Source: Candidatus Levyibacteriota bacterium (lineage in GTDB: Bacteria; Patescibacteriota; Microgenomatia; Levybacterales; UBA12049). From it: DNA of 64,000 nucleotides. A program made the translations under genes and the position numbers. The notes beneath the pieces are model-generated. The model did no database searches. It worked only from the letters and a program-made list of their open reading frames with translations, and was not told where the DNA came from. Numbering within the stretch: the first letter of the stretch is position 1; each line of letters opens with the position of its first letter. The stretch lies in contig CAWBPM010000003.1 in the NCBI GenBank assembly GCA_963790825.1, positions 125,681 through 189,680 on the forward strand, written 5' to 3'. Positions 6,215 to 41,423 of the stretch are shown here, piece after piece.

Positions 6215-6289
6215 AGTTCAAAAACAGATTATTTTTAGTTTTAGCTGCTATACTGTAGAGGATTTTTTTTATAAAGTCGAAGGCGGATT

Positions 6290-6974: not shown

Positions 6975-7628
6975 TTATGATTCTTCGATGAGCTCCGCTT
7001 CAAGCTTCTTTAAATCTTTTACAATAAGCACGTTTTTAGTAAAGGTTACGAGTCTCTTTTCTTCCAGATGCTTCATTTCGCGACTTACCGTTTCCCGAGT
7101 CAAGCCTGTTTGCAGGGCAAAGTCTTTTTGAGTAGTTTTTATATGAATATTTCTATGTGAACCGTGAGGTGAACCGAATCGTTTTGTTGAAATTATTATT
7201 TCCAATGTGAGTCTTTTATATGCACTTCCCGACATAAGATAGACCATGCGACTGAGAAGTCCGTCCATGCCTTTAAATAGTCTTGCGGTTAAGTCAAAAA
7301 GCACATCAGGTTCTTCTCTAACAAAGGCTAATACGTCCTCTTTAGGCGCCCGCCAGACTTCAGCCGGTGTGATAGCCTCATGATAGTAGCCATTCGGAAG
7401 GTTACTTACAACCCACATCATCGGAAAAAAAGATGGTGCTTTATAGATATTTACTATTACTTCATTGCCTTGTCTAGTAATATAGTAGACCCGCACTGTA
7501 CCGCTCTTCAGATAGAATATTCCGGCGGGATTATCCCCGGCTAAAATGAGTAATTGCCCTTTCTTGTACTGTAAATAGTTATATTTAGCAAAGAATTTCT
7601 CCAGTTTTCTTTTTATTTTTTCTTGCAT
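6975..7628 (-). CDS. Crp/Fnr-family transcriptional regulator
   Basis: N-terminal cNMP-binding beta-barrel region and C-terminal HTH (DFALQTGLTRETVSREMKHLEEKRLV). ATG at 7628 chosen; the longer ORF from 7754 looks like read-through. Confidence 0.7.
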   Translation of the reverse strand: MQEKIKRKLEKFFAKYNYLQYKKGQLLILAGDNPAGIFYLKSGTVRVYYITRQGNEVIVNIYKAPSFFPMMWVVSNLPNGYYHEAITPAEVWRAPKEDVLAFVREEPDVLFDLTARLFKGMDGLLSRMVYLMSGSAYKRLTLEIIISTKRFGSPHGSHRNIHIKTTQKDFALQTGLTRETVSREMKHLEEKRLVTFTKNVLIVKDLKKLEAELIEES

Positions 7629-7727
7629 ATGCCAACTATTATACACCTCGAGCGTGATTTGGATCACAATACTTCGTTGTGTTTCCCTATCGCAGCGAAA
7701 AATCTTTTGCTGTATACTACACTTACC

Positions 7728-9269
7728 ATGCGCGTAGCAAGTCAAGCAAAGCATCGTGCAGCTAAAAATATCCTATCTCCACCCAAAACGATGCGGGTAC
7801 TTGACCGCTCAACGAATATTGAGCAGTTACGTTATGAAATTTCCGCGATTGAAAGTGAAAATCAATTACTTCGATTGTTGCTGTCTTCATCTTCAGATCC
7901 AATTCTTATTACTTCATCCAAGGCGAAAATTTTGTTTGTAAATCCGGCATGGGAAAGACTAACGGGCTATAGTTTATCCGAGGTAGAAGGAAAAACTCCC
8001 CGTATTTTCAGCAGCGGCAAAACAGCGAAAAAAGTATATCGGCAGTTATGGACAGCGCTGACAAACGGTGTATCATTTACTACGGAAGAGATTATAAATA
8101 AGGACAAGCAGGGACAGGAATATCAGATTCATTCTTCTTTTTTTCCGGTCACGAACCATAAGAAACTTGAACTCTATGTTCAATTACAACATGACATTAC
8201 CGAAAGAAAAAGGCTGGAGAGGTCTCTGCATTATCATACTTTAATCACAGAACACGTTGCGGAAGGAGTTTGTCTTATTCGTATAACAGATGGTGTTATT
8301 GTATATACCAACCCAAAATTTGAAAAAATGTTCGGATATACCAGTGGCGAGCTTACCGATAAACCCTTTTCTTTTTTATGTTTTGCAAAAGATGAAAAGA
8401 CAGCAAAGAAAATAGCACAAAAGATTTTACAAACCCTGCGGAAACAAGAAACTACAATATATGAGACTCGTAGTATTAGAAAAGATCGGACATCTCTTTG
8501 GTGCAAAGTGACTGTTTCGCAGTTTAATCATCCGGAATTTGGAGATGTTTGGATAGCGATCCACGAAGATATAAGCGAATTTAAGAGGCTTGAAGAGCTA
8601 CGGAGAGAATTTCTTTCAGCCGTTGCCCATGAGTTAAAAACGCCGATAACGGTTTTAAAACTTATTACTCAGTCTCAAATGGAGAAAGCGAAAAAGTTAG
8701 CGCAAAAAAATATCTCTGAGGATGAATTTTTGCTTATTGATCGTGAACTTAGCAGACTGACAAGACTTATCGATGATCTGCTGGACAGCTCCAGGATGGA
8801 AAGCGGAAAATGGCAGATGAACTTCGTACCTACAAATCTCAGCAGACTTACAAACGACGTTGTAAATAAAATGCGTTTATTTGCTAAAAACCACAAAATC
8901 ATTCTTCACGAAATTGCGAATATTTTCGTTATCGCTGATAATCAACGGCTTGAACAAGTATTGTATAATTTAATCTCTAATGCTATTAAATATTCGCCTG
9001 AAAAAACTACCATTACCGTTGATATGCAAGTTAAAAAGAAACTGGTAATAGTCTCAATTACAGATCAGGGTATCGGTATTTCCAAAGAGAAACAAGAACT
9101 TATTTTTGATAGATTTTATCAAGTAAAATCCGCACATCCGAATGGGTTTGGACTTGGATTATATATTTCAAAAGAAATTATTACCCGTCATAAAGGTAAA
9201 ATTTGGCTAAAATCGAAAGAAAAAAGAGGAAGTACCTTTTATTTTTCCTTACCCCTTACAAAAGAGTAA
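7728..9269 (+). CDS. Cytoplasmic PAS-domain sensor histidine kinase
   Basis: Two PAS-like blocks (FVNPAWERLTGYS; YTNPKFEKMFGYTSGEL). H-box AHELKTPITVLK. HATPase_c N/G boxes (LISNAIKYSP..DQGIGIS..GLGLGLYISKEII). No TM segment. Start ambiguous (7728 or 7791). Confidence 0.8.
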   Translation: MRVASQAKHRAAKNILSPPKTMRVLDRSTNIEQLRYEISAIESENQLLRLLLSSSSDPILITSSKAKILFVNPAWERLTGYSLSEVEGKTPRIFSSGKTAKKVYRQLWTALTNGVSFTTEEIINKDKQGQEYQIHSSFFPVTNHKKLELYVQLQHDITERKRLERSLHYHTLITEHVAEGVCLIRITDGVIVYTNPKFEKMFGYTSGELTDKPFSFLCFAKDEKTAKKIAQKILQTLRKQETTIYETRSIRKDRTSLWCKVTVSQFNHPEFGDVWIAIHEDISEFKRLEELRREFLSAVAHELKTPITVLKLITQSQMEKAKKLAQKNISEDEFLLIDRELSRLTRLIDDLLDSSRMESGKWQMNFVPTNLSRLTNDVVNKMRLFAKNHKIILHEIANIFVIADNQRLEQVLYNLISNAIKYSPEKTTITVDMQVKKKLVIVSITDQGIGISKEKQELIFDRFYQVKSAHPNGFGLGLYISKEIITRHKGKIWLKSKEKRGSTFYFSLPLTKE

Positions 9270-29470: not shown

Positions 29471-29749
29471 ATGGCTAAAAAGAGAAAAACATTAAGAGAG
29501 AAAATTCTGGCAGAAAGAAGACAGAAAGAGCTGGCTACTCACCAACAGATATTTTCTCCTCAATCCCCCATCCGCGAGGTTATCCATGCTTACCAACCCG
29601 ATACCCCAGCTCCCAAAATTACACCGACTACAGCAATTACTACTCAAAATTATAATTTTCTTTTCCCGGACCTGAGAAAAACTGTATTTGTTACAGGGCT
29701 TATCATTGTTTCCCAATTAGTACTTTTCTTTATCATGAAAGGTCATTAA
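29471..29749 (+). CDS. Hypothetical small protein with basic N-terminus and C-terminal TM helix
   Basis: MAKKRKTLREKILAERRQKE... then FVTGLIIVSQLVLFFIM. Confidence 0.3.
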   Translation: MAKKRKTLREKILAERRQKELATHQQIFSPQSPIREVIHAYQPDTPAPKITPTTAITTQNYNFLFPDLRKTVFVTGLIIVSQLVLFFIMKGH

Positions 29750-29916: not shown

Positions 29917-29960
29917 ATTGTTGTGATAGTCTTCTTGAGAATCCTGATCAGATACTCAAG

Positions 29961-29995
29961 AAACAAAGATAAAAACCCTACCTATTAGGTGGGGT
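29961..29995 (+). terminator. Rho-independent terminator
   Basis: aaaaaccctacct-att-aggtggggttttt: ~11-bp GC-rich stem with one G-U pair, then TTTTTGTTGTTTTT. Confidence 0.7.
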
Positions 29996-30013
29996 TTTTG
30001 TTGTTTTTGTTGA

Positions 30014-30041
30014 TTGACTTATAGAATAATTTTACTATAAT
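30014..30041 (+). promoter_or_regulatory. Near-consensus sigma70 promoter (TTGACT-N16-TATAAT) for the XRE regulator
   Basis: ttgact at 30014-30019 and tataat at 30036-30041. ATG at 30052. Confidence 0.6.
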
Positions 30042-30051
30042 ACTGTATCGT

Positions 30052-30285
30052 ATGACTAAAGAAGGAATTAGAAGAGGTCGTAAAATTATAGGAAGAGACA
30101 ATAGAGCTATAGATCCTAATAAGCTCCGCCAACTTCGCACAAGTTTTGGACTAAGACAAGCAGATGTTGCAAAACAGATAGGAGTTAGTACGGGATTAGT
30201 CTCTGCATGGGAACGGGGAAGTCAATCTAATTTGAGTCTTGAACAAAGAACTGCTTTAGGACAAATATTGGGAGTAGACCAGTAA
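30052..30285 (+). CDS. XRE-family helix-turn-helix transcriptional regulator
   Basis: LRQLRTSFGLRQADVAKQIGVSTGLVSAWERG is a classic HTH_XRE. Ends at TAA, which is in frame with a downstream repeat-containing reading frame. Confidence 0.75.
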   Translation: MTKEGIRRGRKIIGRDNRAIDPNKLRQLRTSFGLRQADVAKQIGVSTGLVSAWERGSQSNLSLEQRTALGQILGVDQ

Positions 30286-30335
30286 GATTTAATAAGAGAA
30301 CAAGCAACAAAACCGACCAGTCAAACTGATAATTT

Positions 30336-30456
30336 AGCAGCAGAGATAAGTGGATTACGTGCAGAAATAATAGACTTGTATTATGAGTTAACTGAAGCAA
30401 GTGGGTTACGCACAGAAATAAACGATTTGTGTCATGAGTTAGCAGAAGCAAGAGGT
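30336..30456 (+). repeat. 51-nt (17-codon) tandem direct repeat, 2.3 copies, in frame downstream of the XRE stop
   Basis: Units encode AEISGLRAEIIDLYYEL / TEASGLRTEINDLCHEL / AEARG.... ~75% nt identity between units. Confidence 0.7.
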
Positions 30457-30658
30457 AGTTTTTATAGGAAAGTAATTATTCAACCAACCATGCCATCAGC
30501 ACCGCTAATTACCAACCCAAACGGTTTGCAACTCAAGAGAAATAGTATCCATCAAAGAACGATCTAACTATAACTCGTAGAGCCACATCATCTCTTCCAG
30601 AACCGGAGTAATCTCTCTATTCTTAATTGATCGTTAGAAAAAGCAACTAGTGAGGGTC

Positions 30659-31042
30659 TTAAGGATTTTTAAGCCGTGTTATTACTCCATCTGCAATATC
30701 TAATGCAAGAGGAGAATTAATTACATGTCTACTTTCCACATTGAATGTTCCTCTCTGAAATAAGAGTTCATCAACGATAATACTTTGCTTACCAGGATTA
30801 GCTCTTATGGTTTGCACAAAATAATAGCCAATTATGTCATTATCTCTCCGGGTCGTAATTTCAACCTCTGAACCAGTTGTGTTTCGTGTAAGCTCATAGG
30901 GCATATCATTTACCGTCACAATAGTGGATTTGTGTCCTTCCCCTTTTAAGTGACTATTTACTGCAGTGAAGACCGAATCTGTAGTTTGTCGCAAGTCTTC
31001 ACGATCTTCACGAGAGGCACGAGGAATTTCAAGAGATTGCAT
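30659..31042 (-). CDS. Hypothetical 127-aa protein, convergent with the XRE regulator
   Basis: No recognisable motif. Compact predicted alpha/beta protein. Confidence 0.3.
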   Translation of the reverse strand: MQSLEIPRASREDREDLRQTTDSVFTAVNSHLKGEGHKSTIVTVNDMPYELTRNTTGSEVEITTRRDNDIIGYYFVQTIRANPGKQSIIVDELLFQRGTFNVESRHVINSPLALDIADGVITRLKNP

Positions 31043-31126
31043 ATTAATTTTCTCTACTATATCTCAACAAATAACTATTTGCAATACGCTTGTCTCACTA
31101 CGCACTCTCACGTATAATAAGAAGCT

Positions 31127-32908
31127 ATGAAGGAAATTTGGAAAATCGTTAAATATACAACTGTTTTTCGGTCTTATTATATCTCAACCGGTATCTTCGT
31201 CATTGTCATTGCGCTTCTTAATCAAGCGGCGCCGCTTCTTACCAAACAGATTGTTGATTTAATCGTTGCCAAATTAAAAGGTCAACACGCAGAAGTGAAT
31301 CAGATTGTAATTTTAATTCTTCTCATTGTTCTTGCAAATGTACTGGTCAGTATAGCTACGGTTATTTCTCAGTATATAGGCGATATTCTTCAAGTAAAAC
31401 TTAACAATTATTTAATGGAAAAATATTATAAACATGTCCTTGGACTTTCAATAGATTATTATGATAATGAAATTACCGGAAAAATTGTCAATAGGCTTGA
31501 GCGAGGCATTTTTAACATTACCAATCTTTTGTCGCAAATGACAAATAATTTTCTGCCGTTTTTTGTCTCAACACTTGTTACTCTGATTATTATAAGTTTA
31601 TACAGCTGGGAACTTGCTCTGTTGCTTTTTGCTTTGTTCCCTTTTTATATTTGGATTTCGCACAAGTCATCGGTTGCCTGGCGGAATATTGAAAATCAAA
31701 AAAATGAAATTTACGATATAACGAACGGCAGAATATTTGAGGCATTATCGTCAATCCGAGTGGTGAAATCGTTTCTCCGCGAAGTGATCGAGCATACGTT
31801 TTTACATCAGAAACGGAATGAGATTACTTTACTTACAATAAAGCAGTCGAGAGATTGGCATAAATATGATTTTTACCGTCGGATTTTACTCAACGCAGTT
31901 CTCCTCTCGGTTTTTGCTTATATTATTTATTTTACCTTCAAAGGCAAATATACGATTGGCGAGATGACCTTACTCTTGCAGCTTTCCCAACAAGCACAGT
32001 TTCCGCTGTTTGCCATGAGCTTTATTATCGGGCAGATTCAACAGGCACAAGCGGGGTCCAAAGATTTTTTTGAGACACTTGAAAAACAAACAACGGTTAG
32101 AGATAAAAGAGATGCGAAAGAATTAATGCATGTCAAAGGAGCGATTTCTTTTAAAAATGTCGATTTTACTTATAGCAAAGGGGGACAAGTTCTGTCCGAT
32201 ATTTCATTTTCTATTACTCCCGGTAAAAAACTGGCAATTATTGGCGAATCAGGAGAGGGAAAATCAACGATTGCGAATTTACTTCTTCGTTTTTACGAAC
32301 CGCAATCAGGAAACATCATAATTGATGGCAAAGATATTACTGATCTGACACAAGAAAGTTTGCGCAAAAATATCGGTGTTGTTTTCCAGGATACGTTTTT
32401 ATTTGCCGGAACGATTTTTGAAAATATTTCTTATGGAAAAGAAAATGCGAGCAAAGAAGAAATCATCGGGGTCGCGAAAATTGCTAATGCGCATGAATTT
32501 ATTACTCATCTACCTAAAGGTTATGACAGTGAGATTGGCGAGCGGGGAATAAAACTATCGGGGGGTCAGAAACAAAGAATCGCAATTGCTCGGGCTTTAC
32601 TCAAAGATCCACCGATTTTGATTTTTGACGAGGCGACCAGCTCTCTGGATTCGAAAGCTGAATTTGAAGTACAAAAAGCTTTAAATAAGCTAATGGAGGG
32701 AAGAACTACGTTAATTATCGCCCACCGCCTTTCAACAATTCGTCACGTTGATCATATCGTCGTTTTGAAACAGGGAAGAATTGTCGAACAAGGATCTCCG
32801 AAAGTTTTGGAAGCAAAAAAAGGTGTATACGCGGAACTTCTGTCGTATCAAAATATGGGACCTGATGCCGAAGAAAAACTCCAGGAATTTCACATTGACG
32901 GGATATGA
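31127..32908 (+). CDS. ABC exporter, fused permease-ATPase (MsbA/ABCB type)
   Basis: Six-TM domain then Walker A GESGEGKST, signature LSGGQKQRIAIARAL, Walker B ILIFDEATSSLD and H-loop. Promoter TTGTCT-N17-TATAAT upstream. Confidence 0.85.
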   Translation: MKEIWKIVKYTTVFRSYYISTGIFVIVIALLNQAAPLLTKQIVDLIVAKLKGQHAEVNQIVILILLIVLANVLVSIATVISQYIGDILQVKLNNYLMEKYYKHVLGLSIDYYDNEITGKIVNRLERGIFNITNLLSQMTNNFLPFFVSTLVTLIIISLYSWELALLLFALFPFYIWISHKSSVAWRNIENQKNEIYDITNGRIFEALSSIRVVKSFLREVIEHTFLHQKRNEITLLTIKQSRDWHKYDFYRRILLNAVLLSVFAYIIYFTFKGKYTIGEMTLLLQLSQQAQFPLFAMSFIIGQIQQAQAGSKDFFETLEKQTTVRDKRDAKELMHVKGAISFKNVDFTYSKGGQVLSDISFSITPGKKLAIIGESGEGKSTIANLLLRFYEPQSGNIIIDGKDITDLTQESLRKNIGVVFQDTFLFAGTIFENISYGKENASKEEIIGVAKIANAHEFITHLPKGYDSEIGERGIKLSGGQKQRIAIARALLKDPPILIFDEATSSLDSKAEFEVQKALNKLMEGRTTLIIAHRLSTIRHVDHIVVLKQGRIVEQGSPKVLEAKKGVYAELLSYQNMGPDAEEKLQEFHIDGI

Positions 32909-32912
32909 GAAA

Positions 32913-33113
32913 CTATTCGCAACAGGGGTCTTTATAGCCGCAATTTGTACAGACGATGTCGCTGCTTCCCGGCATATCACCCATTGGGGCATTACAAACC
33001 GGACAATTCTGCACATGAGAAGGAGCTCCTGTTTTTTCGGAATCGTCGGAGATGATTTTATTTTTTACAAATTCTTCCGGCATATATTTTTTATTATATA
33101 TTAATCCAAACAA
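32913..33113 (-). CDS. Small Cys-rich zinc-ribbon protein
   Basis: CPVCNAPMG...CTNCGYKDPCC: CxxC-x15-CxxC with extra C-terminal cysteines. 66 aa. Confidence 0.35.
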   Translation of the reverse strand: MFGLIYNKKYMPEEFVKNKIISDDSEKTGAPSHVQNCPVCNAPMGDMPGSSDIVCTNCGYKDPCCE

Positions 33114-33469
33114 TCTTTAAGTACTGAAAGTCCCAAAAGCGCACATTTTTTGCGAGTTTCCGATATTTCAATTCCTAAAAGATTAAGTATATCATTAGCA
33201 TTTAGTTTTTTTAATTCTGTTTTGGGTTTTCCTTTCACAAATTCTGTAAGTAGAGAGGCACCTGCAATACTAATCGCACAACCCCTACCAATAAAACTAA
33301 TCTCGGTAATGGTATCTTTATCAAATTTTATAAATAATTCTATCTCATCTCCACAAAATGGGTTTAATTGCTTGGAAGACGCAGAAAAGTTAGCAAGTTT
33401 CCCGTGGTTTTGGGGACGGCGGAAATGCTCTAGAATTTCTTCACGATATATGTTACTACTTGTCTGCAT
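33101..33469 (-). CDS. sufU: Fe-S cluster assembly scaffold SufU/NifU-like
   Basis: NPFCGDEIELFIKF and GRGCAISIA motifs. 122 aa. Confidence 0.8.
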   Translation of the reverse strand: MQTSSNIYREEILEHFRRPQNHGKLANFSASSKQLNPFCGDEIELFIKFDKDTITEISFIGRGCAISIAGASLLTEFVKGKPKTELKKLNANDILNLLGIEISETRKKCALLGLSVLKDCLD

Positions 33470-33472
33470 ATT

Positions 33473-34708
33473 TTATTTAAATAATTTTTTCACAACTTTA
33501 ATACCAATAACGAGCTTATCGATATCTTCCTGGGTATTATACAACGATAAGCTTACTCTGGTAGTCGCGGGAATTCCAAGTCGAGTATGAAGCGGCATTG
33601 CACAGTGATGTCCTGCACGAACACAAATATTCATACTTCCTAACGACTCTGCGATATCATGCGGATGAATTCCATCCAGTTCAAAGGAAATAATACCGCA
33701 TCTATGCTCTTCGGAACCATAGATCGTAAGACCTTTTATTTTTTTCATTCGTTTTATCGCATAAGTAGTGAGCTCGTGTTCATGTTTTCGTATCGCTTCA
33801 AAGCCGATATTCTCAACATACTCGATTGCCGCACCGAGACTTATAATTCCGGCAATATTTTGCGTCCCTGCTTCAAATTTATAAGGCACGTCCGCGAAAG
33901 TAGTTTTTTCCCGGGTTACACTATACACCATATCTCCTCCGAATAGAAACGGCGGCATGGAATCGAGCAGTTCTTTTTTCCCGTACAATATACCGATGCC
34001 GGTTTCAGCAAATATCTTGTGTCCGGTAAATACGAGGAAATCTGCCCCCAATTTCTGAACATCAATTTGCATATGCGGAGCGGCTTGGGATGCATCAATC
34101 AGTACCTTCAGGTTTTGGTTCCGTTTTTTTATTTTTGCAATTATTTCCTCAAGCGGATTAACGGTACCCAAAACATTCGATACGGCGGTAAGTGCCAGAA
34201 ATTTTGCTTTTTGTAATAAAAAATCCGTATCTGAGGCTCGGTAAGCTTGAGCATTAAGCGCCTGGGGGATTTTTAATTTCCCTGAATCAGTGATATCAAT
34301 AATTTCAAGCTTCGCCTGCTTTTCAATACACAACTGTTGCCAGGGAACGAAATTCGCATGATGTTCCATGATTGTCGTGATCATGACGTCATTTTTTTGA
34401 ATATGTTCTTTTCCCCAGGTATGAGAAACGAGATTGATTGCTTCGGTGGCGTTTTTCGTAAAAATAATTTCTGATGGATTTTTGGCATTAATAAATTTCG
34501 CAACTTGACGCCTTACTTTTTCTACTGCTGCCGTCGCTTTTTCAGCAATCGGATAAAGTCCTCTGTGAATATTTGCGTTATACGTCTGGTAATATTCCAT
34601 TATCGCATCTAGGACTACTTGTGGCTTCTGGCTGGTTGCTGCAGAGTCAAGATAGACAAGGTCAGGATTATTTATAAAAATCGGGAAATCTGTTTTAAAA
34701 ACTGACAT
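33473..34708 (-). CDS. sufS: Cysteine desulfurase SufS (class V aminotransferase)
   Basis: PLP-lysine region (HKIFAETGIGILYG). Catalytic Cys loop (RAGHHCAMPL). 411 aa. Confidence 0.85.
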   Translation of the reverse strand: MSVFKTDFPIFINNPDLVYLDSAATSQKPQVVLDAIMEYYQTYNANIHRGLYPIAEKATAAVEKVRRQVAKFINAKNPSEIIFTKNATEAINLVSHTWGKEHIQKNDVMITTIMEHHANFVPWQQLCIEKQAKLEIIDITDSGKLKIPQALNAQAYRASDTDFLLQKAKFLALTAVSNVLGTVNPLEEIIAKIKKRNQNLKVLIDASQAAPHMQIDVQKLGADFLVFTGHKIFAETGIGILYGKKELLDSMPPFLFGGDMVYSVTREKTTFADVPYKFEAGTQNIAGIISLGAAIEYVENIGFEAIRKHEHELTTYAIKRMKKIKGLTIYGSEEHRCGIISFELDGIHPHDIAESLGSMNICVRAGHHCAMPLHTRLGIPATTRVSLSLYNTQEDIDKLVIGIKVVKKLFK

Positions 34709-34722
34709 ATTAATTCATTATA

Positions 34723-35325
34723 TTATGAATCTAGTGAAAAATGACGGTGTAACTTTTTTCTCACATTATTTTGATCTATCTTCGAAAGCAGCGTAAGGAG
34801 TGGCTCAAAAAAGCCTGAGATAATTAGTGTTTCTGCTTCTTTTTCCCCTATACCTCGGCTTTGCATGTACAATAATTGCTCCGGATCCGGTCTGCCGATT
34901 GTTGATCCATGGCCGGCTTTTACTTCGTTTTCATCAATCTCCAAAGATGGTACCGATCTGCCCCTTGCATCATCAAAAAGAAGAATTTTTGATTGAAAGA
35001 AACCTTGGGTATTCTTCGCACCTTTCATAATTTGCACCATGCCATCATTATTAAATTCCGACTTGTCCTTCATAACTGCACGAAGGGTAGTCAGACTTTT
35101 TGTATTAAGTCCGCTATGTATTACATTTGTCGTAAATCTAATGCTGTTTTCCGATGTAGCGAAAAAAATCCCAATAATAGTAAGTGCTGCATTATTACCT
35201 AACAATTTCGCAGTTAGGTGAATTTCTTTGATGTGCTTCAAATTATCCTTAGGACTAATCCAAACAATTGGAAGAATTACTTCCTCATTATTTTTAACAA
35301 TAAGTTTGATATGCTTTTCATTCAT
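34723..35325 (-). CDS. sufD: SufD-like Fe-S assembly protein (short, C-terminal beta-helix domain only)
   Basis: 200 aa with a SufB/D C-terminal region (GHGSTIGRPDPEQLLYMQSRGIGEKEAETLIISGF). Directly downstream of sufB. Confidence 0.65.
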   Translation of the reverse strand: MNEKHIKLIVKNNEEVILPIVWISPKDNLKHIKEIHLTAKLLGNNAALTIIGIFFATSENSIRFTTNVIHSGLNTKSLTTLRAVMKDKSEFNNDGMVQIMKGAKNTQGFFQSKILLFDDARGRSVPSLEIDENEVKAGHGSTIGRPDPEQLLYMQSRGIGEKEAETLIISGFFEPLLTLLSKIDQNNVRKKLHRHFSLDS

Positions 35326-35343
35326 GGAGACTTCTCATTATTT

Positions 35344-36735
35344 TTATCCGACACTTCCCGTCATTTCAAGCTGGATCAGTCGGTTCAATTCTACCGCGTA
35401 TTCCATCGGTAATTCTCTAACAATCGGCTCAACAAAACCATTGACGATCATTACTTCTGCCTGGGCTTGAGACATACCCCGAGACTGAAAATAAAATAAC
35501 TGTTCTTCACCAATTTTTGAAACACTGGCCTCATGCCCGATTGTTACTCGCTCTTCATTAATTTCCATCGTTGGATATGTATCACTCCTGCTTTTTGGGT
35601 CCAGAATCAAAGCGTCACATCTGACGGTCGACCTGCTATTTTTCGCACCTTTTACTACCCGTAGTAGTCCCCGGTAAGACGTCCTGCCGCCGTCTTTACT
35701 AATCGACTTAGAGGTAATTACCGAGCTGGTTTCCGGAGCCAGGTGAATTGCTTTTCCGCCGGTATCCTGATGCTGTCCGGAACCGGCAAAAGCCAAGGAT
35801 AAGATTTCGCCTCTTGCTTTTCTACCCCGCAAGCAAACACCCGGATATTTCATGGTTAATTGTGACCCCAAATTTCCATCAATCCATTCCCCAAATCCTT
35901 CTTCTTCGACAAACATGCGTTTGGTAACCAAATTATAGACATTTTTGCTCCAATTCTGAATGGTCGTATAGCGAACCCTCGCTCCTTTCATAATTAAAAT
36001 TTCGACTACCGCAGCATGCAGAGAATCCATCGTAAAAATCGGTGCAGTGCAGCCCTCGACGTAATGCACATATGACCCTTCATCGGCAATAATTAATGTC
36101 CTTTCAAACTGTCCCATACTGTGAGCATTGATACGAAAATAAGCTTGCAGTGGCAAATCGACATGAACTCCCGGCGGAACATAGATAAATGACCCGCCGG
36201 ACCAAACAGCTGTATTAAGCGCCGCGAATTTGTTATCCTCAGCCGGAATGATGGCAGCGAAATATTTTTTCAAGAGATCGGGATATTTTTGTAATGCAGT
36301 ATCGGTGTCGACGAAAATTACCCCTTTTTTCGCAAGCATTTTTGAAATTGAACTATAGACAACCTCCGAGTCATATTGCGCTCCGACTCCTGCCAGAAAC
36401 TTCTTTTCTGCTTCGGGAATACCGATTTTATCGTAAGTATTTTTAATCTCTTCAGGTAATCCTTCCCAGGTAGATGCTAGCTTACGCGTCGGTTTCACAT
36501 AGTAGTAAATTTCATTAAAGTTAATCTTATTTAAGTTTCCGCCCCATTGTGGCATTTTTTTGGCAAAAAATAGTTTTAGTGCGAGAAGGCGTTTTTCAAG
36601 CATCCAATCCGGTTCTTTTTTCATTTTCGAAATTGCACGGACTATATCTTCCGAAATGCCTTTTGGGGCTTTATAAAATGGTTTGCCTTTGTCATGAAAA
36701 CCGAATTGATAAGTAGATAAATCAAACTTTTGCAT
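35344..36735 (-). CDS. sufB: Fe-S cluster assembly protein SufB
   Basis: 463 aa. Conserved SufB C-terminal block ([35 protein letters not shown]). Confidence 0.85.
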
Positions 36736-36762
36736 AATAATCTGTCATCCCAATGACAATTT

Positions 36763-37560
36763 TTATATTCCCGCGTATCCTTCTTCCTCAATTTTTTTGA
36801 CTAATTTGATGTCTCCCGATTTCACTATTTTTCCATCTTTTAAGACATGTACCCTGTCAACTGGCAAGAAATGTAAAATCCGCTGATAGTGAGTAATTAT
36901 AAGAATGCCAGTATTATTTTCTTTTACTATGTTTCCGATCGCTTTTGCGACAATTTTTAAACTATCTACATCCAGTCCGGAATCAATTTCATCGAGAATT
37001 GCAAATTTGGGTTTTAATATCAGCATCTGTGCAATTTCGGCTCTTTTTTTCTCACCGCCTGAAAATCCCTCATTTAAGGACCGCTGCATAAAAGATTCGT
37101 CAAGCGAGACCGCGCATAACGCTTTTACTACTTGTTTTTTAAACTCGGATAAGGGAATTTTTTCTTCCGGGCGAAGTGCTTTTGCAGCGGTTCGTAAGAA
37201 TGCCAGAACGGAAACACCCGTGATATCAACAGGAGATTGAAATGAAACAAAAAGTCCGGCCCTGGCTCTCTCCTCTGGAGTTTTGTCCAGCATATTTTCA
37301 TTATCAATTTTGAATTTTGCATTTTGTTTGTCCCGCGCTTTGCCCTTCCGTAGCCTTTGGCGGAGGAGGGAAGCTTTGGCGACGTGGGAAATTCTACATT
37401 CGTAGCCCGGATGCCCCATGAGACTCATCGCGAGCGTTGATTTTCCGGCACCATTGGGACCCATAATCGCATGCACCTCGCCTGGCTTTATCGTCAAATT
37501 AATCCCATGGAGAATTTCTTTATCCGAGATCGATGATCGAAAGTTTTTCAGAACAAACAT
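36763..37560 (-). CDS. sufC: Fe-S cluster assembly ATPase SufC, with an in-frame ~22-aa insertion after Walker A
   Basis: Walker A GPNGAGKST, signature FSGGEKKRAEIAQM, Walker B ILDEIDSGLD. Extra RISHVAKASLLRQRLRKGKARDKQNAKFKIDNENM between Walker A and the Q-loop region. Confidence 0.85.
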   Translation of the reverse strand: MFVLKNFRSSISDKEILHGINLTIKPGEVHAIMGPNGAGKSTLAMSLMGHPGYECRISHVAKASLLRQRLRKGKARDKQNAKFKIDNENMLDKTPEERARAGLFVSFQSPVDITGVSVLAFLRTAAKALRPEEKIPLSEFKKQVVKALCAVSLDESFMQRSLNEGFSGGEKKRAEIAQMLILKPKFAILDEIDSGLDVDSLKIVAKAIGNIVKENNTGILIITHYQRILHFLPVDRVHVLKDGKIVKSGDIKLVKKIEEEGYAGI

Positions 37561-37634
37561 ACAAAGTAGGGATTAGTGTAGAGGAATTCTAAATAAACGT
37601 CAACTTATTAAGTTTGATTCAATGCTTACTAGTT

Positions 37635-39251
37635 TTATTTGCCGGCGTAGTGGATCAATCGATATACTCTTACGACTGAAATACTCCACTCTCCTTCTAT
37701 TTCTGCTCTGCCGAAGCCTGCAATTTCCCACAGAGGATTACCAAGTGGCTTACAGCCCAAATCTTCACAAACAATAAGCAGCTGGTCGGTAACAGTCGTG
37801 CGCTTTGGATCAATCATCAAGTTCTGAATAGTAACCGGCGAGTGATGGTAAATTTCAAAATAATACAGATAGGCATAATCGGAGTTACCGGGCGTGATAA
37901 GTGCAAAATTAAACGGTTTGTTGTTGGTTTTTGATAAAACAAATTCTGAGATTTTTTCTACTTGATCCTTCTGTTTATTCGGAGTATACCATAGCTCATT
38001 TTGAGAAATATTTAGCCAAAGTAGTACCCCGAGAGTTATTAGGCAAATAATGTTTCCAATCGGTTGCAGTTTTTTTCCCTGAAAAATAAATGAGAATAAA
38101 TTACCGATTAGCAGAAACGGCAGCGGAAACATGAACTCAAAATAATAATCATAAATCGGTTTGTGGTAAAAGCCGAAAAGCAGGACACCGAAAAAGAACC
38201 AAAGAAACAGCAAGAGAGCGGCAAGTTTGTTTTTTAACCAGTACAAAAGCACAATCGATGTAAGAGACAAAGTCCATATCATGATTTGCCAAAAAGACAA
38301 AACAAACGGGTTAAATCTGGCAAATTGATCTACAGGATATCCTGCGATGAGATGCCCGAACAACCGGAAATATACGTCTCCTATGATTTGGAAAAATCCG
38401 CTAGAAATACTATTCGGATCATGCATATTACCATAAGTTACAAAATGGAGGATAGTCCTCGTATTCGCAAAATCATGCCGGAACTCAAAAAGAAGAAATG
38501 GTAAAAATCCAACCAGAAAGCCGAGAAAAATAAGAAGATAGTTTTTACATAACATAGTTACATTTGTCATGCTGAGGCGTAGCCGAAGCATCCCCTTACG
38601 AGCAATCTGAGATCCTTCTCCTTCGACAAGCTCAGGATCAGGATGATGAACAAAGTTTGCAATCAGTACAAAAAAGAAAATAATAGGTGCGACAAATGTT
38701 TCAATATAATGTAGTTGTAATGCGATTCCATAGAGAATGCCGACCAGGAGAAATTTTTTCCAACTGTTTTTTAAGATTGTTAAATACAAAAGATAAAGTA
38801 GTAACAACGTAAAAAAGGGCATAGGATTTGGATTCCAGGAAGAACGTGAGTAGGTCAGAACCAAAGGAGAAATAGTGTATAAGAGGGCCGCTATAAGACC
38901 GGCGGTTTCATTAAAGAATCTTTTTCCAATATAATAAATTAACCAAACTGTGGTAATGCCTAAAAGTGCAATCATGACAGCAGGACCGACAGGGTCGAGA
39001 TGAAACAGCCAGAGAAACGGAGCCATGAAATAGTAATAAATCGGACCGGTAAAAAAATCACCGGCAGAGGCCCTCGGACCAAGTAGGGTAAATTGCCCCT
39101 CTAAGATATGTTTTACTACTAATACGTCCCGTCCTTCATCTCCCAGGAAGGTCATATAATCTGAAATCCTGTAGAGTCTGAGAAAGGCAGCCAGAAGAAG
39201 GATAAGACCCAACAAAATTGTTGTCTTATATTTTTGTATGTTTTTTCTCAT
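37635..39251 (-). CDS. GT-C fold membrane glycosyltransferase (ArnT/PMT, GT39/GT83-like)
   Basis: YRISDYMTFLGDEGRDVLV N-terminal DE-loop motif and ~12 TM helices. Contains an in-frame GC-rich patch (HHPDPELVEGEGSQIARKG). Confidence 0.6.
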   Translation of the reverse strand: MRKNIQKYKTTILLGLILLLAAFLRLYRISDYMTFLGDEGRDVLVVKHILEGQFTLLGPRASAGDFFTGPIYYYFMAPFLWLFHLDPVGPAVMIALLGITTVWLIYYIGKRFFNETAGLIAALLYTISPLVLTYSRSSWNPNPMPFFTLLLLYLLYLTILKNSWKKFLLVGILYGIALQLHYIETFVAPIIFFFVLIANFVHHPDPELVEGEGSQIARKGMLRLRLSMTNVTMLCKNYLLIFLGFLVGFLPFLLFEFRHDFANTRTILHFVTYGNMHDPNSISSGFFQIIGDVYFRLFGHLIAGYPVDQFARFNPFVLSFWQIMIWTLSLTSIVLLYWLKNKLAALLLFLWFFFGVLLFGFYHKPIYDYYFEFMFPLPFLLIGNLFSFIFQGKKLQPIGNIICLITLGVLLWLNISQNELWYTPNKQKDQVEKISEFVLSKTNNKPFNFALITPGNSDYAYLYYFEIYHHSPVTIQNLMIDPKRTTVTDQLLIVCEDLGCKPLGNPLWEIAGFGRAEIEGEWSISVVRVYRLIHYAGK

Positions 39252-40473
39252 TTTTTAAATATTGTGTCTTCCAAATAAGCTTATTATAAATAAGATAATT
39301 AAGAGGAAGCACGAGGAAAATAATAGTCGGGAATAGGATGAGAATACGAACAGGCACCGCATAGCTGAATATCAACATATAATTGCCAAGCATCTTCACC
39401 CCGACCCAGACGGCAAAAAACTGAATGAAAATAGAAGCAAGAGACGTCAGATTAAATTTCAGAAGACGCATAAAGATATTCGAGCTTTGCTTAATGTGAT
39501 GCGTATCTTGAAATGTCCAACTATTGTTAAGCATAAAATTGGATAGAATTGCTGCTTCAGCACCGATTGCGGCACCGACACCTTGAGACAGAGAGAGAAG
39601 ATCGGTGTGCGTTGTAAAAAGATTCGTGAAAAGACTTAACCATGTCGTTAAGACAAGTGCCAAACCAAGGCGAATTGTAGCTTCTTGAAAGACCACTTGT
39701 ACGATAAATCCTGTTCCGCCTACGAAAAGAAATTTAATCATCCGTTTACGGTCATCTATTGCCAGCCGGACCACTACATATAGCGAATCAAACTGGTCTT
39801 TCTTGCTAATTTTGCTGGTACCTTTTTCTCTATCTAAAAACGCAATCGGCACTTCGCTGACTTTTGCTCCTGATTTTATAATCTCATGCAGAATGTGCAT
39901 TTTATATGCAAATTGGTAGGAAAGGAGATGATCGAGATCGACTTTTTTTAAGTAGGACGTTTTGGTAAGCTTAAATCCTGACGTCATATCATGGATGCGA
40001 AAATTCAACCAGACTACCTGGGTAAAGAGGCTCCCGAAAACACTTAAGATTTTTCTATCGAGTCCCCAATCTTCAGGAATTGATCCGCCAGACACATAGC
40101 GACTGCCGATAACATAATCCGCTCCCTTATCCATCGCCGAGATTATACGTGGAATATCATGCGGATTATGTTGAAAATCCGAATCAAACTCCATAACCGC
40201 ATCTGCTTTCATTCTGTCCATGGCATAACGCATTCCACGCACATAAGCAGCACCTAAGCCTTTTTTCTCACCTGATAGAAGCTCAATATTATTCCATTTC
40301 TTCATATCTCGCTTTACAACCTCTGCCGTACCGTCCGGAGAATTATCATCAACGACCAGGATTTTCATTTCATGATTTTTGATCTGAGGAAAGATCTTTT
40401 CTTCGAGAACTGGTAACATTTTTTCAATGTTTACTTTTTCATTGTAGGTAGGCAAAATGACGACGATTTTCAT
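39226..40473 (-). CDS. Polyprenol-phosphate mannosyl/glycosyl transferase (GT2, Dpm1/Ppm1-like) fused to a GtrA-like C-terminal membrane domain
   Basis: ILPTYNEKVNI, VVDDNSPDGT and DSDFQHNP motifs. C-terminal 4-TM GtrA-like region. Confidence 0.75.
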   Translation of the reverse strand: MKIVVILPTYNEKVNIEKMLPVLEEKIFPQIKNHEMKILVVDDNSPDGTAEVVKRDMKKWNNIELLSGEKKGLGAAYVRGMRYAMDRMKADAVMEFDSDFQHNPHDIPRIISAMDKGADYVIGSRYVSGGSIPEDWGLDRKILSVFGSLFTQVVWLNFRIHDMTSGFKLTKTSYLKKVDLDHLLSYQFAYKMHILHEIIKSGAKVSEVPIAFLDREKGTSKISKKDQFDSLYVVVRLAIDDRKRMIKFLFVGGTGFIVQVVFQEATIRLGLALVLTTWLSLFTNLFTTHTDLLSLSQGVGAAIGAEAAILSNFMLNNSWTFQDTHHIKQSSNIFMRLLKFNLTSLASIFIQFFAVWVGVKMLGNYMLIFSYAVPVRILILFPTIIFLVLPLNYLIYNKLIWKTQYLKNEKKHTKI

Positions 40474-41423
40474 AAGTTCTTAAAATATTGTACTGTTTTT
40501 TTAAGTCCTTCCTCAAGTGTTACTTTTGCTGTCCAACCTAAAAGCTCTTTTGCTTTGCTGATATCCGGTCTTCTTCTGATAGGATCGTCTTTCGGCAGTT
40601 TTTCACTTAAAATAATTTCACTTCCGGAGTTTGTTATTTTTTTTACCAGAGTTGCATATTCTGAAACTGTATGTTCTTCCGGATTTCCGATATTGACTAC
40701 TTCTCCCGCCAGTCCGGGGGTAAACATAAGGCGCATAAGCCCCTCAACTGTATCAGATACGAAGTTTAATGATCTGGTTTGGGTACCGTCGCCAAACAGA
40801 GTAATCGGCTCCCCCTTTAAAGCTTGAAGAATAAAAACAACAATCATTCGCTTATCTTCTTTTAGCATTCGGGGACCGTAGGTATTAAAAACACGCGCGA
40901 TCCGTCCATCAAGTTCTTCATCCCGCGTAAAATAAGAAACAAGTGTTTCTCCGAACCGTTTCGCTTCGTCATAAACTGAACGCGGACCGGTAGTCGAAAC
41001 ATTTCCCAAGTATGTTTCTTTTTGCGGATGCTCTAAAGGATTCCCATAGACTTCCGATGACGAGGTATAGAGAAATTTTGCATTATGTTTTTTCGCTACT
41101 TTTAATAATTCCAATGTTCCGGTAGTATTTACCAGCATCGTCTGAAGAGGAAGCGCGTGATAACTTAATTTACTATGATGATTAGGTGACGCGGGAGAGG
41201 CCAAATGAAACAATGCATCAATTTTTCCAATATCAGGAAGGGGATTAATTACGTCATGGTGGAGAAAAGTGAAATTTTTATATTCTTTTAGTAAACTAAC
41301 ATTTCTTTCAGAACTTGTCAGAAGATTATCAACACAGATGACTTCATATCCACCCCCAAGTAATCTTTCACAAAGATGAGATCCAATAAATCCAGCACCA
41401 CCAGTTACGATAATTCTTTGCAT
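40470..41423 (-). CDS. UDP-glucuronate decarboxylase (UDP-xylose synthase), SDR family
   Basis: VTGGAGFIGSHLCERLL, YxxxK region, and high similarity pattern to UXS/ArnA C-terminal decarboxylases (DNLLTSS...NPLEHPQKETY). Confidence 0.7.
   Translation of the reverse strand: MQRIIVTGGAGFIGSHLCERLLGGGYEVICVDNLLTSSERNVSLLKEYKNFTFLHHDVINPLPDIGKIDALFHLASPASPNHHSKLSYHALPLQTMLVNTTGTLELLKVAKKHNAKFLYTSSSEVYGNPLEHPQKETYLGNVSTTGPRSVYDEAKRFGETLVSYFTRDEELDGRIARVFNTYGPRMLKEDKRMIVVFILQALKGEPITLFGDGTQTRSLNFVSDTVEGLMRLMFTPGLAGEVVNIGNPEEHTVSEYATLVKKITNSGSEIILSEKLPKDDPIRRRPDISKAKELLGWTAKVTLEEGLKKTVQYFKNL

What the first reader, a model, noticed from the sequence alone, without database searches (positions are those of the whole stretch)
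30014..31042. XRE regulator followed across an in-frame TAA by 17-aa tandem repeats, plus a convergent unknown 127-aa protein, in a promoter/terminator-bounded islet
An intrinsic terminator (29961-29995) then a near-consensus promoter isolate this module. The 77-aa XRE HTH ends at a TAA that is in frame with a further 93 codons. Those codons include 2.3 copies of a 51-nt repeat encoding (A/T)E(I/A)SGLR(A/T)EIxDLxxEL. This could be a longer HTH-plus-coiled-coil repressor inactivated by a nonsense mutation, a case of stop-codon readthrough, or a repeat-number-variable element. The convergent 127-aa ORF has no known fold. Compact XRE-plus-unknown modules are typical of toxin-antitoxin, abortive-infection or prophage-remnant loci.
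Basis: partly seen in the sequence, partly recalled or inferred. Interest (0 to 1): 0.55.

Follow-up and report, generated by a model that had tools for sequence, protein, structure and literature searches.

The report
Stop-interrupted orphan XRE regulator islet
In an uncultured Microgenomates-like (CPR) bacterium, a small strain-specific insert holds an XRE-type DNA-binding regulator gene, apparently cut short by a single TAA stop, and a convergent gene with no relatives anywhere; this is an ordinary accessory-gene remnant, not a new mechanism.

Summary
A 77-aa XRE helix-turn-helix ORF (30052-30285) ends at a TAA. That stop is in frame with 93 further sense codons (30286-30564), which include two diverged copies of a 51-nt unit. 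A 127-aa ORF converges on it.

The post-stop stretch looks like real coding sequence in the XRE frame. It has no start codon for 30 codons, and its codon usage is gene-like (0 of 134 open off-frame controls reach its score). The signal is strongest directly after the stop. It shares the XRE gene's low GC3, and AlphaFold gives a confident helix.

The best reading is one ancestral gene of about 171 aa (HTH, linker, helical repeat) truncated by a nonsense change.

No homologue of the post-stop peptide or of the 127-aa protein was found in any database searched. XRE matches are generic. Twenty-seven syntenic relatives lack the islet, and several carry unrelated accessory genes at the same junction.

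Readthrough, a repeat-number switch, a toxin-antitoxin module and a prophage remnant are not supported. Interest is low.

The parts
29968..30002 (+). Intrinsic terminator of the upstream orf92-DUF5679 unit; it forms the left edge of the islet
   Evidence: 16-pair hairpin plus T-run; inverted repeat I1. The only Rfam matches here are sub-threshold and terminator-like.
30014..30041 (+). Sigma-70-like promoter of the XRE gene (TTGACT-16-TATAAT). The -10 hexamer ends 10 nt before the ATG, so the mRNA would be nearly leaderless (inferred).
   Evidence: 11 of 12 consensus matches. No SD-like 4-mer upstream of the ATG.
30020..30039 (.). Imperfect palindrome TATAG-N10-CTATA in the promoter spacer, overlapping the -10 hexamer; a candidate auto-operator (weak inference)
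   Evidence: It is the only exact match in the 64 kb window. With up to 1 mismatch there are 4 matches against 2.1 expected, so it is not significant on its own.
30052..30285 (+). XRE-family HTH ORF, 77 aa, ending at TAA 30283-30285. The Pfam HTH_3 alignment stops at profile position 50 of 55.
   Evidence: The best solved relatives are DdrO and P22 C2.
30286..30567 (+). Post-stop open frame: 93 sense codons in the XRE frame plus a second TAA. It comprises a linker (codons 1-16), a helical repeat region (about 17-57) and a tail with non-coding-like codon usage (64-93). It is most likely the former C-terminal part of the XRE protein.
   Evidence: no start codon until codon 31. Codon score 0.059, with 0 of 134 open off-frame controls reaching it. 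Codons 1-30 score 0.212 and codons 64-93 score -0.073. GC3 is 0.258. AlphaFold gives a helix over residues 12-64, with pLDDT 82-94 for residues 11-50.
30348..30452 (+). 51-nt (17-aa) tandem duplication, two copies 80% identical, encoding SGLR(A/T)EI.DL..EL(T/A)EA
   Evidence: No significant RNA structure (z = +0.39).
30568..30658 (.). 91-bp gap between the convergent ORFs with no terminator-like structure; the two transcripts could collide or overlap (inferred)
   Evidence: No terminator found. Folds of both strands are no better than shuffles (z = +1.79 and +0.99).
30659..31042 (-). 127-aa orphan ORF with coding-like codon usage and no homologue or fold match
   Evidence: Codon score 0.099, with 0 of 134 spurious controls reaching it. 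GC3 is 0.252. It is a singleton. No hits. AlphaFold pLDDT 51. Foldseek found nothing.
31056..31084 (-). Promoter-like site for the 127-aa ORF (TTGCAA-17-TATAGT), back-to-back with the ABC-transporter promoter-like site at 31090-31118
   Evidence: 9 of 12 and 10 of 12 matches. These are consensus matches only.

Best explanation
The locus is a strain-specific accessory islet of about 1.1 kb in a Microgenomates-like (CPR) genome. It sits at a junction that holds different accessory genes in related genomes.

Its plus-strand gene was most likely a single ORF of about 171 codons. That ORF encoded an XRE-type HTH domain, a short linker, a helical segment of about 45 residues that had duplicated internally (17-aa unit), and a short tail. 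A single-base change created a TAA at codon 78, at the very end of the HTH domain. The gene now yields only a 77-aa HTH product.

By analogy with two-domain XRE repressors, the lost helical part would have mediated oligomerisation. The truncated protein is therefore probably a weakened or dead repressor. Its natural target would be its own promoter; the palindrome between -35 and -10 is a candidate operator.

The convergent 127-aa gene is a real-looking orphan of unknown activity. With no terminator between the two genes, its expression could be affected by transcription from the XRE promoter.

Shown here: the anatomy, the coding-like nature of the post-stop stretch, the uniqueness of the islet and its synteny context. 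Inferred: the ancestral single ORF, oligomerisation, autoregulation and transcriptional interference.
For: - Open frame: 93 in-frame open codons after the stop, P about 0.002.
- No start codon: all ten other long in-frame open runs after real stops in the window start a gene within 0-4 codons. This one has no ATG, GTG or TTG until codon 31.
- Codon usage: the post-stop stretch scores 0.059 in the XRE frame. None of 134 open off-frame control segments reaches this, and 13.6% of real-gene chunks score lower.
- Position of the signal: it is strongest directly after the stop and before any possible start. Codons 1-30 score 0.212 (1% of controls reach it). Codons 1-57 score 0.141 (0 of 165 controls).
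- Composition: GC3 is 0.195 for the XRE ORF, 0.258 for the post-stop stretch and 0.252 for the 127-aa ORF. The 55 long ORFs in the window average 0.337 (sd 0.038, minimum 0.25). The flanking orf92 and DUF5679 genes are typical, at 0.326 and 0.389.
- Structure: AlphaFold predicts a helix over residues 12-64, with pLDDT up to 94, from a single sequence.
- Domain continuity: the HTH domain appears to continue past the stop. The Pfam HTH_3 alignment ends at profile position 50 of 55 in the 77-aa product. HTH_19 and HTH_31 alignments extend to residues 79-82 with +1 to +2 bits when the stop is read as Glu. The best PDB relatives (DdrO, 6jq1 and 6rnz) align ungapped over residues 24-82, with 'DLI' opposite 'DLL'. 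An unbiased family profile gains 3.2 bits (p = 0.049).
- No recoding: TAA is the commonest normal stop (27 of 51).
- Assembly: the Logan assembly of run ERR11594402 is identical over 7.6 kb, including the TAA.
- Islet status: 45 related loci keep SecF-SecD-p191-DUF3048-DUF4446/orf92-DUF5679. None of the 27 with sequence beyond DUF5679 has an XRE-like ORF or any homologue of the three islet peptides. That junction carries Fic/DOC, methyltransferase, EEP-nuclease, RibD_C or PsbP-like genes in different relatives.
- Functional analogy: removing the C-terminal dimerisation domain of the XRE repressor DdrO abolishes dimerisation and DNA binding (PMC7907104).
Against: - No fused homologue exists anywhere to show the ancestral state.
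- The profile-extension evidence across the stop is weak. It gives p = 0.049, has no register specificity (deleting or doubling the stop position scores about the same), and was larger only with a biased family set.
- The 36-residue heptad-type hydrophobic moment of the post-stop peptide is not above chance.
- Differences between the two repeat copies are not significantly enriched at third codon positions (5 of 10; binomial P about 0.2, my count).
- The last 30 codons look non-coding.
- The two assemblies may derive from the same reads, so a population polymorphism cannot be excluded.
Confidence: 0.6

Rival explanations
1. The TAA is the natural stop. The downstream stretch is a separate small gene (for example 63 aa from TTG 30376, or from a non-canonical start) that happens to share the frame, making a two-gene XRE plus small helical protein operon.
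For: Adjacent genes share a frame one time in three, and the window has many same-frame neighbours. SD-like sequences precede only 14 of 56 genes, so a missing SD before TTG 30376 says little. HTH-only XRE proteins of about 66-76 aa exist (P22 C2 N-terminal domain, C.AhdI).
Against: There is no canonical start for 30 codons, yet those 30 codons carry the strongest coding signal (0.212). A start at TTG 30376 would fall inside repeat copy 1. Alignments to XRE domains run across the stop.
Confidence: 0.12
2. The stop is not fixed in the population, or is a consensus artefact. Most cells carry a sense codon and make the full 171-aa protein.
For: The downstream frame is fully intact, which is expected if the stop is very recent or a minority or erroneous call. 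The genome is a metagenome assembly. Both assemblies that carry it may come from one sample.
Against: Two assemblies made by different pipelines agree base for base over 7.6 kb. A substitution error that creates an in-frame stop is uncommon at consensus level.
Confidence: 0.1
3. The post-stop open frame is non-coding DNA (the 3' UTR of the XRE gene) that is open by chance, and the 51-nt duplication has no coding meaning.
For: The hydrophobic-moment test is not above chance. The tail (codons 64-93) is non-coding-like. No homologues exist.
Against: P(open) is about 0.002. Codon score exceeds all 134 open off-frame controls. No RNA family or stable structure explains the region.
Confidence: 0.08
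4. Programmed readthrough of the TAA gives two isoforms: an abundant 77-aa HTH and a rare 171-aa HTH with the helical domain.
For: The only support is the intact, coding-like downstream frame.
Against: TAA is the most used ordinary stop here. No stimulatory RNA structure follows it (z = +0.39). No suppressor tRNA or any RNA family was found in the window. From general knowledge, UAA is the least leaky stop in bacteria, and the known bacterial and phage readthrough cases use UGA.
Confidence: 0.04
5. The pair is a toxin-antitoxin or abortive-infection defence module, with an XRE antitoxin or regulator and the 127-aa protein as toxin or effector.
For: XRE HTH proteins are common antitoxins and defence regulators. 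There are weak sub-threshold similarities to HipB/Y4mF, MqsA, RmrA, CapH and C proteins. The islet is accessory and compositionally foreign. One relative carries a Fic/DOC gene at the same junction.
Against: The genes converge and have separate promoter-like sites, so they are not an operon. The 127-aa protein matches no toxin, defence, phage or solved-structure family. It is a singleton, whereas defence and toxin-antitoxin genes normally spread widely. All HTH matches to antitoxin models fall far below their cut-offs.
Confidence: 0.06

Closest known systems
Two-domain XRE-family repressors such as Deinococcus DdrO (PDB 6jq1, 6rnz, 6rnx). SinR and phage TP901-1 CI are comparable, but those two are recalled from memory and were not tested here.
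   Same: An N-terminal XRE HTH is followed by a helical C-terminal oligomerisation part. DdrO is the best solved-structure match (E = 0.002) and aligns ungapped to residues 24-82, that is, across the stop. In DdrO, loss of the C-terminal domain abolishes dimerisation and DNA binding (PMC7907104).
   Different: The C-terminal part here has no sequence similarity to any known domain. It is a 17-aa tandem duplication. No COG2856/IrrE-type protease partner is present. The two parts are separated by a TAA in the present sequence.
Small HTH-only XRE proteins: P22 C2 and 434-type N-terminal domains, and restriction-modification controller proteins such as C.AhdI (PF01381 HTH_3)
   Same: The size is similar (66-77 aa). 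The domain is the same, with Pfam HTH_3 at 37.8 bits. PDB hits are 1adr, 2r1j and 1y7y, and PADLOC 'Control_protein' gives E = 2.6e-4. The promoter-proximal palindrome is compatible with autoregulation.
   Different: The 77-aa product ends at HTH_3 profile position 50 of 55. It is followed by a coding-like in-frame extension. No restriction-modification genes are nearby.
XRE-type antitoxins of type II toxin-antitoxin systems (HipB/Y4mF, HigA, MqsA)
   Same: They share the HTH fold class. There are weak hits to TIGR03070 (30.9 bits) and TIGR03830 (28.1 bits).
   Different: Scores are far below the cut-offs (71.65 and 61.8). The partner gene is convergent, not co-transcribed, and matches no toxin family.
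Tandem multi-HTH XRE proteins (up to 11 XRE domains in about 1000 aa), which were the top hits of the exhaustive search
   Same: They give the highest-scoring matches to the HTH (P0003 at 123 bits, P0004 at 112 bits).
   Different: Their scores are sums over many repeated HTH domains. Their apparent overlap with the post-stop region is linker sequence, not homology.

Membership tests
XRE / HTH_3 family (PF01381, PF13560) | Sequence match to the family profile above the curated cut-off | tested here: met
   HTH_3 scores 37.8 bits (cut-off 23) and HTH_31 scores 37.9 bits (cut-off 27).
XRE / HTH_3 family (PF01381, PF13560) | Complete five-helix domain, including the end of helix 5 | tested here: inconclusive
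   The 77-aa ORF covers HTH_3 profile positions 1-50 of 55. HTH_19 and HTH_31 alignments and the PDB alignments extend 2-5 residues past the stop. An unbiased profile test gives p = 0.049 with no register specificity.
XRE / HTH_3 family (PF01381, PF13560) | Binding to a palindromic operator | not testable with these tools
   There is only a candidate palindrome at 30020-30039, which is not statistically significant on its own.
Two-domain XRE repressors (DdrO / SinR / TP901-1 CI type) | HTH and C-terminal oligomerisation domain in one uninterrupted polypeptide | tested here: not met
   A TAA at 30283-30285 separates them. The single ancestral ORF is inferred.
Two-domain XRE repressors (DdrO / SinR / TP901-1 CI type) | Homology of the C-terminal domain to a known oligomerisation domain | tested here: not met
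   There are no significant Pfam, PHROGs, NCBIfam or PADLOC hits for the 93-aa peptide. No true homologue appears. The only positive is a predicted helix.
Type II toxin-antitoxin module with XRE antitoxin | Toxin and antitoxin genes co-directional and co-transcribed | tested here: not met
   The ORFs converge (plus strand 30052-30285, minus strand 30659-31042). Each has its own promoter-like site.
Type II toxin-antitoxin module with XRE antitoxin | Partner protein belongs to a recognisable toxin family or fold | tested here: not met
   Nothing was found in Pfam, PHROGs, PADLOC, NCBIfam, PDB sequence search or Foldseek. The structural model is low-confidence, so the fold-level negative is weak.
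Type II toxin-antitoxin module with XRE antitoxin | Toxicity that is neutralised by the partner | not testable with these tools
   This needs an expression experiment.
Programmed stop-codon readthrough or recoding | The stop codon is reassigned or unusually leaky in this organism | tested here: not met
   TAA terminates 27 of 51 long ORFs, TGA 18 and TAG 6, so the standard code is in use. No tRNA or other RNA family was found in the window.
Programmed stop-codon readthrough or recoding | A stimulatory RNA structure or context downstream of the stop | tested here: not met
   The fold of 30270-30470 is no better than shuffles (z = +0.39).
Programmed stop-codon readthrough or recoding | Stop plus downstream ORF conserved among homologues | tested here: inconclusive
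   No homologous locus exists in any collection searched, so conservation cannot be assessed.
Repeat-number-variable (contingency) locus | Several near-identical tandem units whose number differs between strains | tested here: not met
   There are 2.1 copies, 80-81% identical. The only other assembly is identical.
Prophage remnant | Neighbouring phage-type genes (integrase, structural, lysis) or similarity to phage genomes | tested here: not met
   The flanks are SecDF, DUF3048, DUF4446, DUF5679, an ABC transporter and the SUF operon. PHROGs gives only generic HTH matches. Phage, plasmid and IMG/VR searches found no matches for the 127-aa protein and the XRE; the 93-aa peptide gave only four weak chance-level phage hits (E about 0.6, to terminase genes).

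The most novel reading that the evidence does not exclude
The TAA is deliberately leaky. The locus would then encode two isoforms from one gene: an abundant monomeric 77-aa HTH and a rare 171-aa HTH with a helical oligomerisation domain. Their ratio would set repression of a convergent orphan effector gene. This would be a UAA-readthrough regulatory switch in a CPR bacterium.
Probability: 0.04. Interest if true: 0.65.

Novelty: new member of a known kind. Interest (0 to 1): 0.2.

Why it matters
It matters little beyond annotation. The locus shows that a 'stop followed by an in-frame coding-like extension' in a metagenome-assembled CPR genome is best read as a recently truncated accessory regulator. 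It should not be read as recoding or as a defence module.

Two minor points may be useful:

- The junction downstream of the DUF5679 gene is a recurrent landing site for unrelated accessory genes in this lineage.
- The 127-aa protein and the helical repeat are true orphans among about 15 billion predicted proteins. They are examples of the unsampled accessory gene pool of CPR bacteria.

Had the readthrough reading been true, it would have been a rare bacterial UAA-readthrough case. Nothing supports that.

Tried and rejected
- RNA element: Rfam gave only sub-threshold terminator-like hits at 29917-30036 and nothing in the post-stop region. Folds of 30270-30470 and of 30555-30670 on both strands were no better than shuffles. 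Rejected.
- Antisense gene: the 74-aa minus-strand ORF at 30227-30451 has a non-coding-like codon score of -0.204. Rejected.
- Coiled-coil periodicity: the 36-residue hydrophobic moment is not above chance. I do not use it as evidence.
- Profile-extension test: the first version (+7.7 bits, 0 of 500 nulls) was biased, because the family set had been selected with the fused query. Redone without that bias it is only marginal.
- ABC-transporter synteny: the genome-contig scan gave only hits at 48% identity or less. Six orthologous loci at 67-71% identity had completely different neighbours. Uninformative.
- Degenerate DNA motif for GLR(A/T)EI.DL..EL in IMG/VR: five hits, all one family of large phage proteins with a single helical motif and no HTH. 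This is coincidence.
- Phage tblastn of the 93-aa peptide: E about 0.6, to terminase genes. Chance.
- Paralogues: no other copy of any islet peptide in the window or in 89 fetched loci.
- Paper search for the run accession found nothing.
Full report
OBSERVATION

The region was read and all stated features are present.

- The orf92-DUF5679 unit ends at 29917. A strong hairpin with a T-run follows at 29968-30002.
- A near-consensus promoter-like site, TTGACT-16-TATAAT, lies at 30014-30041.
- The ATG at 30052 opens a 77-aa ORF ending in a TAA at 30283-30285. Pfam recognises it as an XRE-type helix-turn-helix: HTH_3 at 37.8 bits against a cut-off of 23, and HTH_31 at 37.9 bits against 27.
- Translation through the TAA gives 93 further sense codons (30286-30564) and a second TAA.
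- Tandem Repeats Finder reports a 51-nt unit, 2.1 copies, 81% matches, at 30348-30452. There are two full copies 80% identical, plus the first 7 or so residues of a third.
- A 127-aa ORF converges from 31042 down to 30659.

ORGANISM AND GENETIC CODE

Orthologues of the neighbouring ABC transporter (67-71% identity) are labelled Roizmanbacteria or Gottesmanbacteria. The window therefore comes from a Microgenomates-like CPR bacterium. Long ORFs in the window end in TAA (27), TGA (18) and TAG (6), so the standard bacterial code applies and TAA is the commonest stop.

IS THE POST-STOP STRETCH CODING?

- From base composition, 93 open codons have a probability of about 0.002.
- Same-frame open runs after real stops are common in the window, but in every other case of 86 or more codons a start codon lies within the first 0-4 codons, meaning it is simply the next gene. 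Here the first ATG, GTG or TTG is codon 31.
- I used a codon log-odds model trained on 46 long ORFs. The control was 134 open off-frame segments lying inside real genes. The post-stop stretch scores 0.059 in the XRE frame. No control reaches this, and 13.6% of real-gene chunks score lower. The XRE ORF scores 0.123 and the 127-aa ORF 0.099.
- The signal is strongest immediately after the stop. Codons 1-30 score 0.212 (1% of controls reach it). Codons 1-57 score 0.141 (0 of 165 controls). The last 30 codons look non-coding, at -0.073.
- Third-position GC is 0.195 (XRE), 0.258 (post-stop) and 0.252 (127-aa). The 55 long ORFs of the window average 0.337 (sd 0.038, minimum 0.25). The flanking small genes are typical, at 0.326 and 0.389.
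- AlphaFold, from the single sequence, predicts a helix over residues 12-64 of the post-stop peptide, with pLDDT 82-94 for residues 11-50 and a disordered tail.

Negative or weak tests:

- The 36-residue heptad-type hydrophobic moment is not above chance.
- The ten differences between the two repeat copies are not significantly enriched at third codon positions (my count).

DOES THE HTH DOMAIN CONTINUE ACROSS THE STOP?

- The HTH_3 alignment of the 77-aa product ends at profile position 50 of 55.
- With the stop read as a residue, the HTH_31 and HTH_19 alignments lengthen to residues 79-82 and gain 1-2 bits. HTH_3 does not change.
- The best solved relatives, the DdrO repressors 6jq1 and 6rnz, align without gaps from residue 24 to 81-82, with 'DLI' opposite 'DLL'.
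- A family profile built from search hits gave +7.7 bits and beat 500 of 500 null extensions. That family set had been selected with the fused query, so the test was biased. Rebuilt from 617 domains chosen with residues 1-75 only, the gain is 3.2 bits, p = 0.049, with no register specificity.
- I therefore count this line as suggestive only.

HOMOLOGUES

- The fused query found nothing in the word-indexed search of 5.8 billion proteins.
- The exhaustive phmmer search of 1.84 billion cluster representatives returned the 77-aa protein itself and otherwise generic XRE domains. The top hits are tandem multi-HTH proteins whose scores add up over many domains. Their overlap with the post-stop part is linker sequence.
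- That list shows only the best 150 of 879 hits, so weak hits to the C-terminal part alone could be hidden. However, direct scans with the 93-aa peptide found nothing in metagenome or IMG/VR contigs, and only chance-level phage hits.
- The 127-aa protein is a singleton. It has no match in GTDB genomes, IMG/VR, phages, plasmids, Pfam, PHROGs, PADLOC, NCBIfam or PDB sequences.
- Its AlphaFold model is poor (pLDDT 51): a helix, a six-strand meander and a helix. Foldseek finds nothing below E 0.09.
- Exact-sequence look-up finds the islet on only two records. One is the 418.5-kb source contig. The other is a 16.8-kb Logan contig from run ERR11594402, which is identical to the window over 7.6 kb.

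CONTEXT

- The ABC transporter's orthologues sit in unrelated neighbourhoods.
- The left flank is strongly conserved. Forty-five metagenome loci carry SecF-SecD-p191-DUF3048-DUF4446 and, divergently, orf92-DUF5679.
- Beyond DUF5679, about 20 loci continue with an epimerase, GT2 and PMT_2 cluster. The window has this cluster at 41423-37647 (47-55% identity).
- Six loci continue instead with SufS-NifU-ferredoxin-OFOR alpha/beta.
- The window thus has a 7.7-kb block (29918-37634: the islet, the ABC transporter and the SUF operon) between DUF5679 and PMT_2, with the islet at the junction.
- None of the 27 loci with at least 1.5 kb beyond DUF5679 has an XRE-like ORF or any homologue of the islet peptides.
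- In several relatives the same junction holds other accessory genes. These are Fic/DOC with a winged helix, a methyltransferase, an EEP nuclease, RibD_C and PsbP-like proteins.
- Together with the low GC3, this makes the XRE plus 127-aa pair a lineage-specific acquisition at a variable junction.

INTERPRETATION

The most economical account is a single ancestral gene of about 171 codons (XRE HTH, linker, internally duplicated helical segment, tail) interrupted by a nonsense change at codon 78. Only a 77-aa HTH is now made. Glu (GAA) is the single-step ancestor that fits the family profile best, though only marginally.

By analogy with DdrO, where removing the C-terminal domain abolishes dimerisation and DNA binding (PMC7907104), the truncated product is probably impaired. 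A palindrome, TATAG-N10-CTATA, lies between -35 and -10 of its promoter. It is the only exact copy in the window but is not significant statistically, so autoregulation is an inference. No terminator or stable structure lies between the convergent ORFs, so transcriptional interference with the 127-aa gene is possible but untested.

RIVALS

- A natural stop plus a separate small gene is disfavoured because the best coding signal lies before any start codon.
- A polymorphism or consensus error cannot be excluded without reads.
- A chance open frame is disfavoured by the codon and openness statistics.
- Programmed readthrough has no positive support.
- The toxin-antitoxin, abortive-infection and prophage-remnant readings fail the tests of gene orientation, partner family and phage neighbourhood.
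- A repeat-number switch fails on copy number and copy identity.

VERDICT

This is a new member of a known kind, an XRE-family regulator in an accessory islet, with an orphan neighbour. Interest is low.

Noticed in passing
window 29918-37634, compared with L091-L134: Compared with about 20 related metagenome loci, the window has a 7.7-kb block (islet, ABC transporter, SUF operon) inserted between DUF5679 and the PMT_2-GT2-epimerase cluster (window 37647-41423). Six relatives instead have SufS-NifU-ferredoxin-OFOR alpha/beta next to DUF5679. The window has no OFOR genes.
   Followed up: partly
L116/L117 4856-6934; L105 5358-6779; L119 and L124 about 6000-6842; L102 5598-6338; L092 3836-5428; L115 5311-6915: The junction just downstream of the DUF5679 gene holds different accessory genes in different relatives. 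These are Fic/DOC with a winged-helix domain, a small-domain methyltransferase, an endonuclease/exonuclease/phosphatase protein, RibD_C and PsbP-like proteins. It looks like a recurrent insertion or variable spot in this lineage.
   Followed up: partly
window 30036-30054 and 31113-31129: The -10 hexamers of the promoter-like sites of the XRE gene and of the ABC transporter end only 9-10 nt before their ATG. This implies nearly leaderless mRNAs. SD-like 4-mers precede only 14 of 56 long ORFs (crude start calls).
   Followed up: no
proteins P0003 (1048 aa), P0004 (1002 aa), P0005-P0010: The exhaustive search surfaced proteins made of up to 11 tandem XRE HTH domains separated by short linkers. 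This architecture is unusual and has nothing to do with the locus studied.
   Followed up: no
window 1-64000: No Rfam family reaches its gathering score anywhere in the 64 kb window. There is no tRNA, riboswitch or other known RNA.
   Followed up: no
window 29471-29749: The 92-aa ORF between DUF4446 and DUF5679 has no Pfam match. It is nevertheless conserved in position, at 27-45% identity, in most of the 45 related loci. It has a basic N-terminus and a hydrophobic C-terminus, so it is a real lineage-specific small membrane protein.
   Followed up: partly
L135-L139 (IMG/VR contigs): A family of large phage proteins (1200-1350 aa where complete) carries a single GLRTEI(A/S)DLEYEL helical motif that matches the repeat consensus. 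I judge it coincidental: there is one copy, no HTH, and no wider similarity.
   Followed up: yes
window 7623-9269 (+) and 6975-7754 (-): Two long ORFs on opposite strands overlap by about 130 nt in the mechanical ORF list. The start of one is probably mis-called. I did not examine this.
   Followed up: no
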